Below are positions 28,115 through 33,950 of a stretch of DNA of 64,000 nt, piece after piece. The translations under genes and the position numbers were made by a program. Below the pieces are notes generated by a model, which had not been told where the DNA came from, did no database searches, and was given only the letters and a program-made list of their open reading frames with translations. The DNA is taken from NCBI GenBank assembly GCA_052389415.1, contig JBQTHX010000014.1, positions 1 to 64,000 on the forward strand, read 5' to 3'. Source of the stretch: Nitrosopumilaceae archaeon. Its GTDB lineage: Archaea > Thermoproteota > Nitrososphaeria > Nitrososphaerales > Nitrosopumilaceae. The number at the start of each line of letters is the position of its first letter. Within the stretch, counting starts at the first letter, position 1.

Positions 28115-28857
28115 AAAGAGGACTTTTACTCATAGATAGAGGAAGCAGAGAGAAAGAAGTACAAGAAGAGCTTAATTATATTTGCGAGAAGGTCAAATCA
28201 AAAGGAAATTACCTTTTTTGTAACTATTGCTTTTTAGAAGTAATTCCACCCTTTATAGAAGAAGGTATAGAAAAATGTCTCAGAGGTGAAACAGATTCCT
28301 TAACAATTGTACCTTATTTTTTATATCCCGGAAAAAAAGTCAAAGCCGCAGTAAATACAGCTATTGCGATGCAATCCAAAACTAAAGTCAAACTTATCAT
28401 TTCAAAACCTATGAGTCAACACAAATCAATGATTAGTCTAGTGGATGAAAAAATAAAATCCACACTTGCTAAAAATAAAATAACACTTTCCAAAAAACAA
28501 GTAGATGTTTTGATTATTGGACACGGGAGCAAAGATCCTAATGCAAAAATAGCCATTAAATATGTAGTAAATGGATTAGCATCAGAATATAGAAATGTAG
28601 ATTATTGTTTTTTAGAAATTGAAGAGCCAAATATTTCTCAAGGAGTTGAAAAATGTGTAAAAAATTCACCTGAAGTATTGATTGTGATGTTTTACTTTCT
28701 GCATGAAGGTGCTCATGTAAAAAGAGACATTTACACAGATCTAAATCCTGCACTGGAAAAATCCGGGTTGAATAATGTTTTTGTAACTGAGCATCTTGGA
28801 ACAGACGATAAAATGATAGATCTTATTATTGAACGAGCAAGAGAAGTAGAAAGATGA
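28111..28857 (+). CDS. cbiX: Sirohydrochlorin cobaltochelatase, two-domain CbiX type
   Basis: Two CbiX repeats (CFLE..P, P.FL..G); second repeat has GHGS and GAHVKRDI; lies in cbi cluster. Confidence 0.85.
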   Translation: MKRGLLLIDRGSREKEVQEELNYICEKVKSKGNYLFCNYCFLEVIPPFIEEGIEKCLRGETDSLTIVPYFLYPGKKVKAAVNTAIAMQSKTKVKLIISKPMSQHKSMISLVDEKIKSTLAKNKITLSKKQVDVLIIGHGSKDPNAKIAIKYVVNGLASEYRNVDYCFLEIEEPNISQGVEKCVKNSPEVLIVMFYFLHEGAHVKRDIYTDLNPALEKSGLNNVFVTEHLGTDDKMIDLIIERAREVER

Positions 28858-29492
28858 TTACCAACAAAGGTCAGTCCATAGAAGACAAAAGCATGGAAAT
28901 TATAGAAAATGAGATTGGACCTCATTCATATAATGAATTTGAATGGCCAATAGTTAGAAGAGTAATTCATGCAACTGCAGACTTTGATTTTGCAAGAAAA
29001 AACATGATTATTTTTCATAAAAATGCCATATCAAGTGGCATTAATGCCTTGAAGAGTGGCTGTAATATCATTGTGGACGTAAATAGTGTCATAGGTGGTC
29101 TAAACAAGGAAAACTTGAAAGAGTTTGGAAACAAGGCGATTTGTTACATATCGGAACCAAATATTATAGAACAGGCCAAGAAACTAAACAAAACACGCGC
29201 CCAGACTTCTATGCGAATGGCTGCTTCAGATATGAATGGAGGTGTGGTTGCAATAGGCAATGCTCCAACAGCACTAGTAGAAGTAATTCAAATGATAAGG
29301 GAAAATGTAACACACCCTGCTCTTGTGATTGGAATCCCAGTTGGTTTTGTGTGCGCAGTAGAATCAAAAGAAAAACTTCAGACACTTGACATGCCATACA
29401 TTACAAACAAAGGTCGTAAGGGAGGAAGCCCTTGTGCATCTGCAATAGTAAATGCGCTGTTTAATCTCTTAAAAGAAAAATCAAAAGGCTAA
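28854..29492 (+). CDS. cbiC: Precorrin-8X methylmutase
   Basis: IEDKSMEII, RRVIHATADF, IGNAPTAL, G.PVGFV, GRKGGS. Confidence 0.95.
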   Translation: MITNKGQSIEDKSMEIIENEIGPHSYNEFEWPIVRRVIHATADFDFARKNMIIFHKNAISSGINALKSGCNIIVDVNSVIGGLNKENLKEFGNKAICYISEPNIIEQAKKLNKTRAQTSMRMAASDMNGGVVAIGNAPTALVEVIQMIRENVTHPALVIGIPVGFVCAVESKEKLQTLDMPYITNKGRKGGSPCASAIVNALFNLLKEKSKG

Positions 29493-29566
29493 ACGAGTTT
29501 ATTGACAAAGAGTAAAAATGATTAACCCCCGCTTTGAAGCCAAAAGCATGCTATTGTCGTAAAACT

Positions 29567-31372
29567 TTAGTCTAGAACCTGATTCGTACGATATTTCTTA
29601 GCAGAAATTTGTAGTGCCTTCATATTTTCTTTGTATGATAAATCCTTGAGAGAATCTTTGTTTTCTCTATCTAATTTCCCTACATTACTTGGATAGTAGA
29701 ACTTGAATTCTTTCTTGTTATCTTCAGTGGAGCTAAATGGATTACCAATTAATGACTGTGACACAGTTTGTGCTTTCGTATCTTCGTTGATTATCGATTT
29801 ATCAAATCCATTATCATGTCTTTCTGATTTTCCAACATATTGTGGATAGACTATGGGAAATGATTTAGGATGAACCTGGTTTTCTTCCAATCCTCCAAAT
29901 GAATTGTAATAAATTAAATTTCCTTCTGAATCAGCATCTGGAATCTCATAGTATGGTAGTTTGTAGTATGGTATGATAATATCAGCAGAATCTGGAACAA
30001 TCAGGTTACTTGCATCTGGATTGACAAGAGGTTCACCATCTATCTTTAGAGCATCAAATATCTTTATGTCTCCAGAATTTCGTAGTTCATCCCATGTTCG
30101 TATGATTACATCAGATGTATCCATTGGTTTTGCAAATGTCAAGTTAAATTCAGCAACATACTTGCCATCGTATTCTGATTCTGTGAAATTTACATTAGCA
30201 AAGTACCCATTAGGATCTGTGATTCCTAGTGGTTTATCTTCATGATAAATGACAAAAGTATCGCTGTTTGATATCTCTCTCTTGTCTTCTCGCAGGTTAG
30301 TGTAGAATCCAATATGCTCTACTCCTGTGGAGTCAAATAATATCATCTTAAATGAGATTGGTTCTCCAGTTTTTCCTGTGTAGGTCTGAATTGTATTTGC
30401 ATACTGGGTAAGAAGATAGCCATTACCATTAATCGATAGCGGATAGTCTATTGAAGAGTCATCAAGCGGTGCAATGGGTGTGAATGGGTCTGCATTTGTA
30501 ATGAAATTCAAAATGTCACCAACTAATGGAAGACTGGACAGGTTTAACTTTGGAATAGTAAGTTGAGGTGCAATAAAGTCTCCTCCAGAGGCACCGCCAG
30601 CAAGAACATCAAGAACTATTCTGTTTATTACTAGACCTCCGCCAGAGCCTCCGCCTCCACAACCACTTTCGCCGACGCTTAATACGGCAGTATCGGTATG
30701 AGAGGAATCTCCATACGTCACAGTTACTGTATCCCCAAACTCCGCTTTTATAGCTCCAAACGAACTACCATCTTGGATCGGTGTTATTTGACCATTTACT
30801 ATATTTCCACATGGAGGAAAAATGTTGAAGATTTCACCAGATGTTATCTGAAAAATATTTTCATTGGAAGGACCTGTTGCTGACAGAGTAAAGATTCCTT
30901 TGAAAACTCCAGTGTTAGGTCCTGTCTCGGTAATCACCGGTTCAATGAACTCTCCATCTCTTGTGTCGACGAATAATGTTAATACATCTATTACATTTGG
31001 ATCATAGAAATTTTCGTTCACATATGTTGCCTCCAGAGTGGTCTCCAACGGGAACTTGTTGTCTCCATTCATCAAATAAAGCTGGGGAACAAGAGTAGTT
31101 GGCTCAAGATTGTCAAAAAATCCTGGAAAAACCTCGTTAAGAAGAAGCGTGATTCCAACAGGATCACTAGTTGTTGTTACAGTAACAGATACTGTTCCAG
31201 CTCCTGTCAAAGCTGGATCAAATAAACGGATTTCTACCGGATATGTCCAAGATAGATCAGTTGCGATGAAATCTACTGTGGCATGGCTTGCGGAAGCAAA
31301 AGATGATCCATCAAATAAAATGAAAATTGTTCCTGTAATAATCATTAGAAAAACTATTTTCATTTTGTCCAT
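29567..31372 (-). CDS. Secreted surface protein with S-layer-like Ig repeats
   Basis: Signal peptide (..SSFASA), TETGPNTGVFKG motif, GGGGSGGG linker, beta-rich C-terminal domain. Confidence 0.7.
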   Translation of the reverse strand: MDKMKIVFLMIITGTIFILFDGSSFASASHATVDFIATDLSWTYPVEIRLFDPALTGAGTVSVTVTTTSDPVGITLLLNEVFPGFFDNLEPTTLVPQLYLMNGDNKFPLETTLEATYVNENFYDPNVIDVLTLFVDTRDGEFIEPVITETGPNTGVFKGIFTLSATGPSNENIFQITSGEIFNIFPPCGNIVNGQITPIQDGSSFGAIKAEFGDTVTVTYGDSSHTDTAVLSVGESGCGGGGSGGGLVINRIVLDVLAGGASGGDFIAPQLTIPKLNLSSLPLVGDILNFITNADPFTPIAPLDDSSIDYPLSINGNGYLLTQYANTIQTYTGKTGEPISFKMILFDSTGVEHIGFYTNLREDKREISNSDTFVIYHEDKPLGITDPNGYFANVNFTESEYDGKYVAEFNLTFAKPMDTSDVIIRTWDELRNSGDIKIFDALKIDGEPLVNPDASNLIVPDSADIIIPYYKLPYYEIPDADSEGNLIYYNSFGGLEENQVHPKSFPIVYPQYVGKSERHDNGFDKSIINEDTKAQTVSQSLIGNPFSSTEDNKKEFKFYYPSNVGKLDRENKDSLKDLSYKENMKALQISAKKYRTNQVLD

Positions 31373-31553
31373 TATGTGAAGTTGATTCTTCAAGGAATGA
31401 TAAAAACAAGATCCTGTTTCAGATCTGGAAATTAATAATTTTTATAAAAAATCATTGAATTTTAACTATAATTCCTTAACATTTATAGCTCCGAAATAAC
31501 ACATACATATGTGAAGTAGCAATGAGGTGCAAATGAGGTAGCACTTTGCAGGT

Positions 31554-31817
31554 ATGATTGCAGTAATTTCTGTCTCTAAAGCATATTCTCACAGAGGTAA
31601 TCATAGGCACAGACCTAACACTAAGAAGCATTGGTATGTCTACTATGTCGATGATGAAGGTAGACTGGGTACAAAGAAAGTAAACTTTCTAGAAGCAATG
31701 TTTTACAAGAGTCTCAAGACACATAGATACAAGTATTATTGCCAAGAGTGCGGAAGTTATTTTCTAGCCTTTTTGAAATCAAAAAAGAAATCCATAGAAT
31801 GTCCTAATTGTTCATGA
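31554..31817 (+). CDS. Small basic zinc-ribbon protein
   Basis: HRGNHRHR, WYVYYVDDEG, CQEC...CPNC; AGGT upstream of ATG. Confidence 0.72.
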   Translation: MIAVISVSKAYSHRGNHRHRPNTKKHWYVYYVDDEGRLGTKKVNFLEAMFYKSLKTHRYKYYCQECGSYFLAFLKSKKKSIECPNCS

Positions 31818-31836
31818 ATGTCACTATGTTGGTGAA

Positions 31837-32355
31837 TCAATAACCCAAACTGATAACATCTCTGACTTCTTGAAAAATTCTCTGGTGTAATTTAGTATAC
31901 AGCCTTTTTTTATGGATAAAATAATCAATTGACGTATTGATTAGATCTCCTGCCAAGGCATTTTTCCATGGTTGTTTATAATCTTGAGGTTCTGTGACAC
32001 TCAATATTCTTGCAAAAAGGGTTTTCATATCAGTCCTTCTCCATATTCCTTTATTTTTATCAAGTTCAACATAATCTTCTTTTACAAGAGGTCTAAAAAT
32101 GTCTTCTAATTGTACATCATTTGCAATTTCACAAATCAGTTGCAGATCTAGTATTGCATTTTGAGCCGTATGCTTTATTCTCCACCAAAAATCAGAATCC
32201 TCTGTTTGCCGTTCCTTTTTCTTTAAACCCAACAGTCTTTTTTTCTGATTTGGACTAAGAAACCCTCTATTTTTGAGAAGAAATCCATATCTCATTCTTA
32301 AACGTTCTAACTGATTTTGATTCAATTCTCGTGTATATTCACGATAACTACCCAT
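31837..32355 (-). CDS. Hypothetical basic helical protein of accessory block
   Basis: 172-aa ORF with ATG; no recognised family; divergent from the cas1-like fragment. Confidence 0.7.
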   Translation of the reverse strand: MGSYREYTRELNQNQLERLRMRYGFLLKNRGFLSPNQKKRLLGLKKKERQTEDSDFWWRIKHTAQNAILDLQLICEIANDVQLEDIFRPLVKEDYVELDKNKGIWRRTDMKTLFARILSVTEPQDYKQPWKNALAGDLINTSIDYFIHKKRLYTKLHQRIFQEVRDVISLGY

Positions 32356-32447
32356 ATTCTCATTGAATTATTGTTATATCCTTTCAGATTATGATATTCA
32401 TTGAATAAAATCAACAAACTTGAGAAAGAGAGAAAAGATCACGGAAT

Positions 32448-32540
32448 TTGACACTGAAAGAACACATAAACCACTACAACGTAAAATTCCTAAAAGGCTA
32501 CGGATTCTCAGTCAATGTCAATGTCTCTTTAGAAGAATAA
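32448..32540 (+). pseudogene. cas1: Truncated N-terminus of solo/casposon-type Cas1 (casposase)
   Basis: TTG-started frame MTLKEHINHYNVKFLKGYGFSVNV then early stop; resembles the recalled N-terminus (MTL....NHYNVK.L.GYG.S) of Nitrosopumilus solo Cas1 proteins; needs a search to confirm. Confidence 0.7.
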
Positions 32541-32594
32541 TTCATAGGAATAGACATAGATTCATTCATAATTTTAGAATTAGATTTTTGTAAC

Positions 32595-33950
32595 TTATCT
32601 TCTGGAATGTTTCATACAGTTTTGAACAAAATTTCTTGCAATTCCTGGTAATCCAAAATGTATATGCATGTATGAAGCTAGGGTGTTATATTGCATCAAA
32701 CCATCTTTTTGGTTTTTTATACCAATACCAATGGATAGATCATAAGCAAATTTGGAATCCTTTGGTACTGACTCTAGCTCAGAAAAATGAAACTCATGTC
32801 CTTGTATTGTGCTTGAAGTCTTTGCTATAAGACAATCATTTACTATTTTTGCTTTAGTATAGTTTAGCTTGAGTTTTTTTTGCATCTTTGTTGTAGCATC
32901 ATAAAGGCCCACCATCTTAAATTTTTTAGAACCATAATCAATTGATCTTGTAAGATACATCAAACCACCGCATTCTGCATAGATTGGAGTCCTAGACTCG
33001 GCAAGTGTCTTGATGTTTTTTTGTATTCTGGAGTTTTTCTCAAGTGCCTCACCCATCACTTCAGGAAAACCACCTCCAATGTAGATTCCATCACAGTCAG
33101 GTACCTCCAAGTCAGATACAGGACTAAAAAACTCTAACCTTGCTCCTTCTTTTTGTAGGGCATCCAAATTATCCTGATAATAAAAATTAAAGGATTCATC
33201 CAGTGCAACCGCAATTGTTGTTTTCTGTTTTGGATTTTTTTCCTTAGGAATTGAACCAAAAGATGGAATTTTGCTTCCAATCTGGATGATTTTGCCAATA
33301 TCGATAAAACTTGACATTGCTTTTGCTATTTTTGATATCTTTGACTGAAGCCGTCTTTGTTCAGAAACTGGAATCAATCCAAGGTGTCTTGATTCCATTG
33401 TAAGATCAGGATCCCTTGGAATAACACCAACAATAGGAATATTCAATGAAGAAAGTGCCTGCCTACAGAGATTCTCATGTTTTTTGCTACCAACCTTGTT
33501 TAGAATAAAACCAGAAATCCTAGAATTCTTTTGAAATTTCATAAATCCAAGGGCTGTCGCAGCTATTGAACGTGCAGTTTTGCTTGCGTCTAAAACAAGA
33601 ACTACAGGAGCTTTTAAAATCTCAGCTACGTGATATGTACTAGAAAAATTGGAATCGCCAGAAAATCCATCATAGAATCCCATAACTCCTTCTATCACAG
33701 AAAAATCAGAGCTGGAGTTTTTTACAAAACTTGTTTCAACTGCCCTCAAACCCATAAGCCAAGGATCCAAGTTTCGTGCAGGATTACCAGAAACTGCGGA
33801 AAGATAGCTTGGATCTATAAAATCTGGCCCAACCTTGAATGGCTGTACAGAATATCCACTTTTTTTGATACCGTGTATAATTGCTGCAGTAATTGAGGTC
33901 TTGCCAACACCGCTTGATGTTCCTGCAATAACAATTCGTGGAATTTTCAT
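32595..33950 (-). CDS. cbiA: Cobyrinate a,c-diamide synthase
   Basis: SGVGKT, FKVGPDFID, IEGVMG, SRHLGL, GATase AECGG, GHEFH. Confidence 0.96.
   Translation of the reverse strand: MKIPRIVIAGTSSGVGKTSITAAIIHGIKKSGYSVQPFKVGPDFIDPSYLSAVSGNPARNLDPWLMGLRAVETSFVKNSSSDFSVIEGVMGFYDGFSGDSNFSSTYHVAEILKAPVVLVLDASKTARSIAATALGFMKFQKNSRISGFILNKVGSKKHENLCRQALSSLNIPIVGVIPRDPDLTMESRHLGLIPVSEQRRLQSKISKIAKAMSSFIDIGKIIQIGSKIPSFGSIPKEKNPKQKTTIAVALDESFNFYYQDNLDALQKEGARLEFFSPVSDLEVPDCDGIYIGGGFPEVMGEALEKNSRIQKNIKTLAESRTPIYAECGGLMYLTRSIDYGSKKFKMVGLYDATTKMQKKLKLNYTKAKIVNDCLIAKTSSTIQGHEFHFSELESVPKDSKFAYDLSIGIGIKNQKDGLMQYNTLASYMHIHFGLPGIARNFVQNCMKHSRR

What the first reader, a model, noticed from the sequence alone, without database searches (positions are those of the whole stretch)
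32448..32540. Unannotated fossil of a casposase (solo Cas1) N-terminus
Seen: a 30-codon frame MTLKEHINHYNVKFLKGYGFSVNV-NVSLEE* in what looks intergenic; similarity seems to end at a micro-duplication (gtcaatgtcaatgtc, ~32511-32525). From memory this matches the start of Cas1 proteins of thaumarchaeal family-1 casposons and solo cas1 loci. No CRISPR repeats or other cas genes are in the window. Inference: a casposon-related element was here and lost nearly all of cas1 and polB by deletion. Described thaumarchaeal casposons target the aEF-2 gene, so a remnant in the cobalamin region would be an atypical site or a rearranged relic.
Basis: partly seen in the sequence, partly recalled or inferred. 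Interest (0 to 1): 0.72.

Follow-up and report, generated by a model that had tools for sequence, protein, structure and literature searches.

The report
Casposon relic with Cas1 gene stub
This is the dead front end of a Cas1 integrase gene, left with one arm of a self-copying transposon (a casposon) that once landed between two vitamin B12 genes of an ammonia-oxidising archaeon; it is real, but it is a relic of a kind already known.

Summary
The 30-codon frame at 32448-32540 exists. Its first 25 codons are a genuine remnant of a family-1 casposase (solo Cas1) gene. They match the genome's own intact casposase beside aEF-2 (14/24 residues) and a DNA profile of 15 full-length cas1 genes (E 1.7e-14).

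The stub is not isolated. The 3.1 kb between cbiC and cbiA is an insert that 10 relatives lack. Directly after the cbiC stop it begins with a copy of the casposon target: an aEF-2-tail leader and a 13-nt TSD one base off the published one. A casposon left TIR follows. Next come three cargo genes, one from a casposon-linked family, then the stub in the correct orientation. The rest of cas1, polB and the right TIR are missing.

Related genomes carry the same pad with other TIR types, other cargo and shorter stubs.

Across 150 Nitrosopumilaceae genomes, short cas1 5' stubs are very common (71 listed, 49 ending at residues 21-40). I could not explain that clustering.

Verdict: a real decayed casposon arm, of moderate interest. 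Whether the core was deleted in place or the arm arrived already truncated is not settled.

The parts
28854..29492 (+). cbiC (precorrin-8X methylmutase-like), left host flank; its stop codon is 29490-29492
   Evidence: ORF. It is 66-90% identical to cbiC next to cbiA in relatives.
29493..29500 (+). Leader-like copy of the aEF-2 3' end (ACGAGTTT); together with the next part it reads ..NEFIDKE-stop like the aEF-2 tail
   Evidence: Compare the own aEF-2/casposon junction and the published leader ending GTTT (PMC8464041). It is absent from the 10 relatives in which cbiC and cbiA abut.
29501..29513 (+). 13-nt TSD-like target copy ATTGACAAAGAGT
   Evidence: One mismatch to the published N. koreensis AR1 TSD ATTGATAAAGAGT. 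The change breaks the ATAA ruler but keeps A1, A11 and T13.
29514..29575 (+). Casposon left terminal inverted repeat (starts AAAAATGATTAACCCCC)
   Evidence: Window 29493-29570 (leader, TSD copy and TIR together) is 82% identical over 78 nt to the same junction in G015. Window 29504-29568 is 76% identical over 67 nt to the left end of the second casposon in G020. The leader-TSD-TIR stretch is also 90% identical over 41 nt to the one upstream of a cas1 stub in G133 and 86% over 71 nt to that in G057. It has the same AAAAA..CCCCC start as the TIRs of the own intact casposon.
29567..31393 (-). Cargo gene, 608 aa, secreted or S-layer-like, function unknown
   Evidence: ORF. Only weak family hits. 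Paralogues elsewhere in the genome at 35-70% identity. It lies inside the insert.
31554..31817 (+). Cargo gene, 87 aa, zinc-ribbon protein
   Evidence: Zn_ribbon_8 E 1.2e-4, below Pfam's cut-off. One paralogue on C55.
31837..32355 (-). Cargo gene, 172 aa, member of a casposon-linked family of unknown function
   Evidence: Homologues in 8 of 150 other family genomes. In 7 of those 8 a cas1 gene or stub lies within 1-8 kb (coordinates). In G020 it sits at the far end of an intact casposon. No Pfam, NCBIfam or Atlas hit.
32448..32523 (+). cas1 (casposase) 5' stub, 25 codons, TTG start; the open frame runs on to 32540 by chance
32526..32582 (+). About 50-nt dispersed intergenic motif that abuts the stub; part of the insert but not casposon-specific
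   Evidence: Copies at unrelated loci in many relatives. It often lies 13-72 nt after a gene's stop. No Rfam match.
32595..33950 (-). cbiA (cobyrinate a,c-diamide synthase-like), right host flank
   Evidence: ORF. Found in 142 of 150 family genomes.

Best explanation
The frame is an inert remnant, the first 25 codons, of the casposase (solo Cas1) gene of a family-1 casposon. It is the inner edge of a surviving casposon left arm. That arm runs: a copy of the element's usual target (the last codons of aEF-2 plus the 13-nt duplicated site), the left TIR, a cargo slot now holding three genes, then the cas1 start pointing inward. The element landed between the convergent, normally abutting cbiC and cbiA genes in an ancestor of this species and its closest relatives. 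The core (the rest of cas1, protein-primed polB, right TIR) is gone. With no casposase and no right end, the arm can no longer move, so it persists while intact copies can excise.

Shown: the cas1 origin of the stub; the TIR and target copy; the insert status of the 3.1 kb; the casposon linkage of the 172-aa gene; the absence of the core.

Inferred: that a complete element was once here and lost its core by deletion in place (my odds about 0.6, against about 0.3 for arrival as an already truncated piece). Also inferred: that the target copy travelled with the element, as proposed for the M. mazei casposon. The stub itself does nothing as a gene. The adjacent target copy may still act as a secondary landing pad for the genome's intact casposon.
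For: Identity of the stub:
- BLASTP to the own Cas1 gives 14/24 identities, E 2e-9.
- The only other genome-wide hit is the cas1 start on C16.
- The DNA profile of 15 full-length cas1 genes gives E 1.7e-14 at profile positions 2-76.

The own genome holds an intact family-1 casposon:
- It has Cas1 (PF01867, E 2.6e-48), pPolB (PF03175, E 2.4e-29), TIRs matching 48/52 and a 21-nt flanking repeat at the aEF-2 stop.
- No Cas2 is found.

Left arm in the window:
- Leader-like ACGAGTTT, a TSD copy one base from the published AR1 TSD, then the TIR.
- The junction and TIR are 76-90% identical to casposon left ends elsewhere.
- In 13 of 13 full-length cas1 loci fetched, a TIR-like motif lies 83-851 nt upstream of cas1 on the same strand. 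The window shows the same layout with a longer slot.
- 172-aa gene: in 7 of its 8 homologues a cas1 gene or stub lies within 1-8 kb.

Insert status:
- cbiC and cbiA abut or overlap in G008, G010, G018, G059, G061, G081, G099, G107, G141 and G159.
- The pad, with or without a stub, is present in the window, G001, G004, G006 (remnant), G015, G057, G098 and G140. All of these have cbiA at least 84% identical to the window's.

Erosion series at this locus:
- Stub of 25 codons (window), about 18 (G004), and 15 with an identical junction (G015, G140).
- No convincing stub in G001, G057 or G098.

Not a conserved ORF: the start codon, the length and the tail differ between orthologues, and G140 has lost the start.

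Target travelling with the element: passages of PMC10359463 report a casposon TSD transferred to a new site in vivo.
Against: No right TIR or second TSD copy was found at the locus, so a complete element here is inferred and not seen.

The TIR-to-cas1 distance, 2.9 kb, is far larger than the 83-851 nt seen in intact elements. The arm may therefore be a composite of several events.

TIR type and cargo differ between genomes that share the pad: the window, G004, G001, G015 and G057/G098, plus a near-identical strain in run X4. A single old insertion with vertical decay does not explain this by itself.

The stub is 23/23 identical to G015's over one stretch, although the neighbouring intergenic DNA is not alignable. 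This suggests refreshment by recombination or separate arrivals.

At an ilvD-like gene in G070, a module of the same build is a clean 840-nt indel relative to G046. That fits arrival as a ready-made piece, or a very precise loss.

The origin of the aEF-2-tail copy at a non-aEF-2 site is not demonstrated for family 1. The authors of the M. mazei study themselves call their observation possibly an artefact.
Confidence: 0.8

Rival explanations
1. The arm arrived already truncated. A DNA piece running from the aEF-2 tail through TIR and cargo to the first 80-115 nt of cas1 was cut from an aEF-2::casposon junction or array. It was then inserted after the cbiC stop, possibly by the casposase itself, which in vitro integrates almost any DNA end.
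For: The G070 module at an ilvD-like gene is a clean 840-nt indel against G046, with the native flank fully kept at the right junction. In 21 of the 28 stubs fetched, homology ends at cas1 nt 76-115, although the sequences downstream of the stubs are unrelated between loci. Of 71 N-terminal fragments listed, 49 end at residues 21-40. At G133:C14 a 1.1-kb insert with ends that are not TIRs is flanked by a roughly 13-nt direct repeat, and G153 has the empty site. Passages of PMC8464041 report wide tolerance of the family-1 casposase for the integrated DNA.
Against: No duplication of the cbiC-cbiA site is visible around the window insert. The published casposase is strictly specific for the target, and the empty cbiC-cbiA site has no target-like sequence. 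The orthologous stubs show stepwise erosion, which shows that deletion in place does happen here. None of the stubs inspected for it was followed by a copy of its own TSD (read by eye).
Confidence: 0.3
2. The stub is kept because it has a function of its own. Possibilities are a micro-protein, part of the promoter or 5' leader of the divergent 172-aa gene, or a homology 'trap' that recombines with the cas1 5' end of any casposon landing in the pad and deletes that casposon's core.
For: Stubs are strikingly common and similar in length. The window stub is 23/23 identical to G015's over one stretch despite diverged surroundings. TIR and cargo upstream of a shared stub-and-motif junction differ between the window and G004. 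That is the pattern recombination with incoming elements would leave.
Against: Of 24 stubs, 6 carry stops or frameshifts within the conserved part. Orthologues at this locus differ in start codon, length and tail, and G001, G057 and G098 do without a stub. No RNA data were available (not evidence either way). No test of recombination was possible.
Confidence: 0.07
3. Chance resemblance, or a remnant of a CRISPR-associated cas1 and not of a casposase.
For: The match is short (24-25 codons) in AT-rich DNA. The own Cas1 also scores against CRISPR Cas1 models.
Against: E 1.7e-14 against the cas1 DNA profile. The match starts exactly at the start codon. A casposon TIR and target copy lie upstream in the right orientation, and orthologous stubs exist. 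The window has no CRISPR array and the assembly has no Cas2. The only intact Cas1 sits with pPolB between TIRs.
Confidence: 0.02

Closest known systems
NitAR1-C1 / NitSJ-C1, family-1 casposons of Ca. Nitrosopumilus koreensis AR1 and relatives (Krupovic 2014, PMC4046053; Wang 2021, PMC8464041; passages read)
   Same: Compact Cas1 without an HTH domain. The leader ends in GTTT. The 13-nt TSD is ATTGATAAAGAGT, against ATTGACAAAGAGT here. The sequence after the TSD starts AAAAA. The target is the 3' end of aEF-2, and cargo is variable.
   Different: Only the left arm and 25 codons of cas1 survive here. There is no polB and no right TIR. The site is cbiC-cbiA, not aEF-2, and it carries a copied aEF-2 tail. 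The ATAA ruler in the TSD is mutated.
Tandem and decaying casposons: NitNF5-C1/C2 at ef-2 (PMC6563490) and the second, TIR-less casposon remnant of M. psychrophilus R15 (PMC4046053)
   Same: Casposon remains next to or instead of an active copy, with loss of TIRs and core genes over time.
   Different: Those remains lie at the canonical target beside a live element. This one lies at a secondary site, on another contig from the live element, and is reduced to one arm.
MetMaz-C1 translocation in vivo (family 2; PMC10359463, passages read)
   Same: [quoted passage not shown] This matches the copied aEF-2 tail found here after cbiC, and after an ilvD-like gene in G070.
   Different: A different casposon family and host. 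The evidence there is PCR-based and the authors say it may be an artefact. Here the evidence is comparative only.
Family-1 casposons at non-ef-2 sites (NitDev at a purD-like gene, NitEve-C1 intergenic; PMC6563490)
   Same: They show that ef-2 is not the only site used by thaumarchaeal casposons.
   Different: Those are complete elements. In the passages I read, the paper does not mention target copies or cas1 stubs at such sites.

Membership tests
Family-1 casposon (intact element) | Full-length casposase (Cas1 without HTH) | tested here: not met
   Only profile positions 2-76 of about 1080 nt are present, and there is no further homology in the next 1.2 kb. No other cas1 piece lies in the genome except the intact gene on C16.
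Family-1 casposon (intact element) | [quoted passage not shown] | tested here: not met
   tblastn of the own pPolB hits only C16, plus one weak match (E 0.21) at C14:83 kb outside the window. None of the ORFs between cbiC and cbiA is a polymerase.
Family-1 casposon (intact element) | Terminal inverted repeats at both ends | tested here: not met
   The left TIR is present at 29514-29575. No inverted partner lies in 28800-33000. The only inverted copy is 61 kb away at C14:93449-93509.
Family-1 casposon (intact element) | 13-bp target site duplication on both sides | tested here: not met
   A left TSD-like copy lies at 29501-29513. No second copy lies near the stub or cbiA.
Family-1 casposon (intact element) | Insertion at the 3' end of aEF-2 | tested here: not met
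   The site is cbiC-cbiA. However, the last codons of aEF-2 are copied at the left junction.
Casposon remnant (left arm) | Sequence significantly derived from casposase, starting at its start codon | tested here: met
Casposon remnant (left arm) | A casposon TIR upstream of the cas1 start on the same strand, preceded by a target or TSD | tested here: met
   The same layout is seen in 13 of 13 full-length loci and in 13 of 24 stub loci by motif scan, plus 1 by BLAST. The distance here (2.9 kb) is larger than in any of them.
Casposon remnant (left arm) | The segment is an insertion relative to related genomes | tested here: met
   Ten relatives have cbiC and cbiA abutting.
CRISPR-Cas adaptation module | cas2 and a CRISPR array near cas1 | tested here: not met
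   No Cas2 in the assembly, which is 94% complete. No array in the window. Arrays elsewhere in the genome were not scanned.

The most novel reading that the evidence does not exclude
The cas1 5' stub is not a random scrap. It is the regular scar of a process by which family-1 casposons deposit cargo. The element moves to a new site carrying a copy of its aEF-2 target. Its core then leaves, or is deleted, with one break falling in a hot region at cas1 nt 76-115. What stays is an immobile module: target copy, TIR, cargo, stub. The retained target copy seeds a new landing pad that later casposons reuse. This would explain the different TIR types and cargo found at one pad in close relatives.
Probability: 0.2. 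Interest if true: 0.65.

Novelty: new member of a known kind. Interest (0 to 1): 0.4.

Why it matters
For this window, it explains 3.1 kb of otherwise puzzling DNA in the cobalamin cluster. It also flags three unannotated features: a target copy, a TIR and a cas1 stub.

More widely, casposons are the presumed ancestors of CRISPR adaptation, and how they move in vivo is barely known. Natural relics that keep a copied target site at secondary loci are independent comparative support for the tentative idea that a casposon carries its own target site (PMC10359463). The large excess of cas1 5' stubs of similar length in Nitrosopumilaceae points to a preferred break region that can be tested at the bench.

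If the pad next to cbiC is still usable, the genome has a second casposon integration site, beside genes for cobalamin synthesis.

Tried and rejected
- Inverted or direct partner of the TIR within 28800-33000: none convincing.
- Own-casposon idea that the cas1 start is part of a long TIR: rejected. The TIR is about 45 nt, and the cas1 start lies about 320 nt inside it.
- Mini-casposon model (stub end acting as a right end followed by a TSD copy): I read the stub ends by eye and saw no copy of the element's own TSD after them. No TIR motif was found downstream of any of 24 stubs in the DNA held, up to 2.5 kb where the locus reached that far.
- Nested-insertion model (a new casposon inserted into cas1): rejected for the same reason.
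- Common descent of all stubs from one truncated module: rejected. Downstream sequences are unrelated between loci, apart from the cbiC-cbiA orthologues and one inverted duplicate on a contig end.
- Conserved pseudo-target inside cas1 5' (TTT, A1, A11, T13): found in only 2 of 15 genes at one position on the reverse strand.
- A decayed stub in G001: the alignment is too weak to claim.
- Function of the 172-aa protein: no Pfam, NCBIfam or ESM Atlas lead.
- Rfam on 29400-32700: a single sub-threshold snoRNA-like hit (26 bits against a cut-off of 50).
- RNA evidence: no RNA holder listed, so expression is unknown.
- Read laying used contigs only, and no joints were reported.
- Earlier notes of this scan near this place: none.

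Full report
**Observation.** The window holds the ORF 32448-32540 (+), with a TTG start and 30 codons, exactly as quoted. The repeat gtcaatgtcaatgtc lies at 32511-32525. It sits between a 172-aa gene on the minus strand (31837-32355) and the 3' end of cbiA (32595-33950, minus).

**Is it Cas1?** The assembly (1.43 Mb, 94 contigs, 94% complete) has one Cas1 gene over Pfam's cut-off, on contig C16.
- That gene is 361 aa and lies just downstream of the aEF-2 gene.
- The peptide matches its first 24 residues with 14 identities and 20 positives (pairwise E 2e-9).
- Genome-wide tblastn of the peptide finds only itself and that cas1 start (E 1.2e-5).
- I built a DNA profile from 15 full-length cas1 genes of the family: the own gene, one from G020 and 13 fetched.
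- The profile aligns window 32449-32523 to positions 2-76 (44 bits, E 1.7e-14) and finds nothing further in the following 1.2 kb.
- The best DNA identity to a full-length gene is 57/76.

**The Cas1 is a casposase.** On C16 the Cas1 gene lies with a protein-primed-type PolB (PF03175, E 2.4e-29), a helicase and a STAND NTPase. The block is bounded by about 45-nt TIRs (48/52 identical) and a 21-nt flanking direct repeat at the aEF-2 stop. No Cas2 is found in the assembly, and the window holds no CRISPR-like array. Named relatives of this Cas1 are Nitrosopumilaceae, Nitrosarchaeum and Nitrosopumilus MAGs.

**What surrounds the stub.** In ten relatives the 3' ends of cbiC and cbiA abut or overlap: G008, G010, G018, G059, G061, G081, G099, G107, G141 and G159. 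The 3.1 kb between them in the window is therefore an insert. From left to right it contains:
- the eight bases ACGAGTTT and the 13-mer ATTGACAAAGAGT, directly after the cbiC stop (29490-29492);
- a TIR starting AAAAATGATTAACCCCC.

Read in frame, the first two pieces repeat the tail of aEF-2 (..NEFIDKE-stop). The published target of the N. koreensis AR1 casposase is a leader ending GTTT, the TSD ATTGATAAAGAGT and then AAAAA (PMC8464041, passages). The window differs by one base, which breaks the ATAA ruler but keeps A1, A11 and T13.

The junction and TIR are 82% identical over 78 nt to the same junction in G015, and 76% over 67 nt to the left end of a second casposon in G020. They are also 90% identical over 41 nt to the junction and TIR upstream of a stub in G133, and 86% over 71 nt to G057.

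In 13 of 13 full-length cas1 loci fetched, a TIR-like motif lies 83-851 nt upstream of cas1 on the same strand. So the window has the layout of a casposon left arm, with an unusually long (2.9 kb) cargo slot.

**The cargo.** The slot holds three genes:
- a 608-aa secreted or S-layer-like protein with paralogues in the genome;
- an 87-aa zinc-ribbon protein;
- the 172-aa protein.

The 172-aa protein has homologues in 8 of 150 other family genomes (one of these, G100, is flagged unpublished). In 7 of the 8 a cas1 gene or stub lies within 1-8 kb (coordinates). In G020 it sits at the far end of an intact casposon.

**What is missing.**
- No right TIR or second TSD copy lies between cbiC and cbiA.
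- No polB lies there.
- No further cas1 piece lies anywhere in the genome.
- Among the Cas1 matches listed for 150 family genomes (150 rows shown, 28 not shown), none lies on the contig and near the position of cbiA.
- None of the 13 cbiA flanks fetched holds a full cas1.

**History of the locus.** The pad occurs only in genomes whose cbiA is at least 84% identical to the window's: the window, G001, G004, G006 (a decayed trace), G015, G057, G098 and G140. Two genomes of that identity band, G100 and G114, are flagged unpublished and were not examined.
- Stubs shrink along a series: 25 codons here; about 18 in G004, which shares the downstream motif junction with the window; 15 in G015 and G140, which share one junction 8 nt from the cbiA stop.
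- There is no convincing stub in G001, G057 or G098.

That is what erosion in place looks like. Yet TIR type and cargo differ between these genomes. G057 and G098 share the same flanks and the same small ORF but have different TIR cores. A contig of run X4 is identical to the window over the last 93 nt of cbiC and the pad, and then continues into another TIR type (record 25, depth 3.3). The window and G015 stubs are 23/23 identical over one stretch although the surrounding intergenic DNA does not align. So the pad has either been reused or been converted by other casposons.

**Where the copied target comes from.** The empty sites have nothing target-like, so the aEF-2 tail came with the insert. 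A second case supports this. In G070, an ilvD-like gene is followed by an aEF-2-tail-like leader, a TSD-like 13-mer, a TIR, cargo and a 35-codon stub. G046 of the same genus has the two flanks 5 nt apart, a clean 840-nt difference. [quoted passage not shown] The authors caution that this could be an artefact. My comparative data fit that idea but do not prove it. I treat that as a lead only.

**A family-wide pattern.** Searching the own Cas1 against 150 family genomes gave matches in 80.
- In the 150 rows listed, I count 71 fragments that start at residues 1-5 and stop before residue 300.
- They end at residues 21-25 (5), 26-30 (14), 31-35 (19), 36-40 (11), 41-50 (4), 51-75 (10), 76-100 (5) and 101-300 (3).
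- Three of the 71 are from unpublished genomes (G100 twice, G114 once). I left out two rows that are halves of frameshifted full-length genes.
- Nine further rows cover only residues from about 295 to 356.
- In G008 an N-stub is fused to a C-stub.

For 28 stubs, which I chose because they were short and which are therefore biased, the DNA profile puts the end of homology at nt 46-152, with 21 of 28 at nt 76-115. Their downstream sequences are unrelated between loci. A left-type TIR lies 208-1503 nt upstream in 13 of 24 by motif scan, plus one by BLAST. Only 2 of those 13 are at a true aEF-2 gene. Six of 24 stubs carry stops or frameshifts.

The lower edge of the length peak is probably a detection limit, but the sharp fall after residue 40 is not. 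I tested and rejected three explanations: a TSD after the stub, a TIR after the stub, and a conserved pseudo-target in cas1. The cause of the clustering remains unexplained. An A-rich stretch at cas1 nt 70-105 is the only sequence feature I can point to.

**Verdict.**
- It is a new example of a known kind, since casposon remnants and secondary sites are both in print (PMC4046053, PMC6563490; passages read).
- My two literature searches listed no paper whose title or abstract deals with cas1 5' stubs or copied aEF-2 tails. That is not proof of absence, and the supplements were closed.
- The points of wider interest are the copied target at secondary sites and the excess of stubs of similar length.

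Noticed in passing
window 32526-32582: A conserved motif of about 50 nt (core ..AATAATTCATAGAAATAG..) abuts the stub. One search listed short matches to this part of the query in 9 relatives. I fetched 14 of those places and added the G001 cbiC-cbiA flank; 13 copies at 12 of these 15 loci matched the motif and were placed relative to genes, beside the window's own copy. In 9 of these 14 copies the motif lies 13-72 nt beyond the stop of a gene on the opposite strand. G009 has an inverted pair 2.4 kb apart. No Rfam family matches. It may be a terminator-like or regulatory element, or a tiny mobile repeat.
   Followed up: partly
own genome, contig C16:2955-20030 (L002/L001): An intact family-1 casposon of about 17 kb at the aEF-2 stop. 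It has 48/52 TIRs and a 21-nt flanking repeat. Cargo includes a DUF4062-STAND NTPase, a helicase and a HEAT-repeat protein. It also holds a PolB C-terminal fragment (C16:12140-12298). Inside its far arm there is a 14-nt exact copy of the cas1 start followed by TIR-like sequence (C16:3630-3691), so it looks like a composite of two elements.
   Followed up: partly
own genome, contig C14:93449-93509 (outside the window; L073 17450-17510): A second casposon TIR, inverted relative to the window's and alignable to it over about 60 nt (BLAST: 21 of the first 23 nt identical). A TSD-like 13-mer lies next to a ribose-phosphate pyrophosphokinase gene. Inside it lie cargo-like genes: TPR, metallophosphoesterase, hemerythrin and a CARF/HFX_2341 winged-helix protein. 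Whether it was once the partner of the window's arm is not known.
   Followed up: partly
L060 (G057) and L062 (G098), cbiC-cbiA spacer: Same pad, same TSD variant and the same small ORF of about 75 aa, but two different TIR core sequences of about 45 nt between identical flanks. This points to gene conversion of a relic TIR by another casposon.
   Followed up: partly
L048 (G070:C1:379000-383000) against L086/L091 (G046): An 840-nt module (aEF-2-tail-like leader, TSD-like 13-mer, TIR, cargo, 35-codon cas1 stub) sits directly after an ilvD-like stop in G070. It is absent from G046, where the flanks are 5 nt apart. No duplication of the host site is evident.
   Followed up: partly
L044 (G133:C14:2500-6500) against L093 (G153), L095 (G088), L092 (G043): A 1.1-kb insert containing a pad, a TIR and a 22-codon stub is flanked by a direct repeat of about 13 nt of host sequence. 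G153 has the empty site. G088, G067 and G105 carry about 200 nt, and G043 carries another TIR type at the same place. The insert's outer ends are not TIRs.
   Followed up: partly
150 family genomes: Cas1 5' stubs are far more common than any other cas1 fragment: 71 N-terminal fragments, 49 of them ending at residues 21-40. Nine rows are C-terminal only, and internal-only pieces are few.
   Followed up: partly
150 family genomes: The aEF-2-tail/TSD motif occurs in 100 of 150 genomes, with up to 7 copies per genome. The reversed-pattern control gives 0-3. Many copies lie outside aEF-2.
   Followed up: partly
L083 (G020:C1:770500-774500) and L084 (G082:C7): Two full casposons of one genus use a different 13-nt site, at the 3' end of another gene (tail ..SVIYAK-stop). 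They are inserted in opposite orientations, which suggests a second target family.
   Followed up: no
run X3 laid on window 32468-32528: A contig in a metagenome run of the same study matches the stub at 85% or more. On both sides it continues as what reads like an intact cas1 (start codon upstream..KIILKNNFDP.. downstream). This is a living relative of the stub's source gene.
   Followed up: no
window 31339-31403 (-): A weak C/D-box snoRNA-like Rfam hit (snoZ40, 26 bits against a cut-off of 50, E 0.025) overlapping the start of the 608-aa gene. Probably chance.
   Followed up: no
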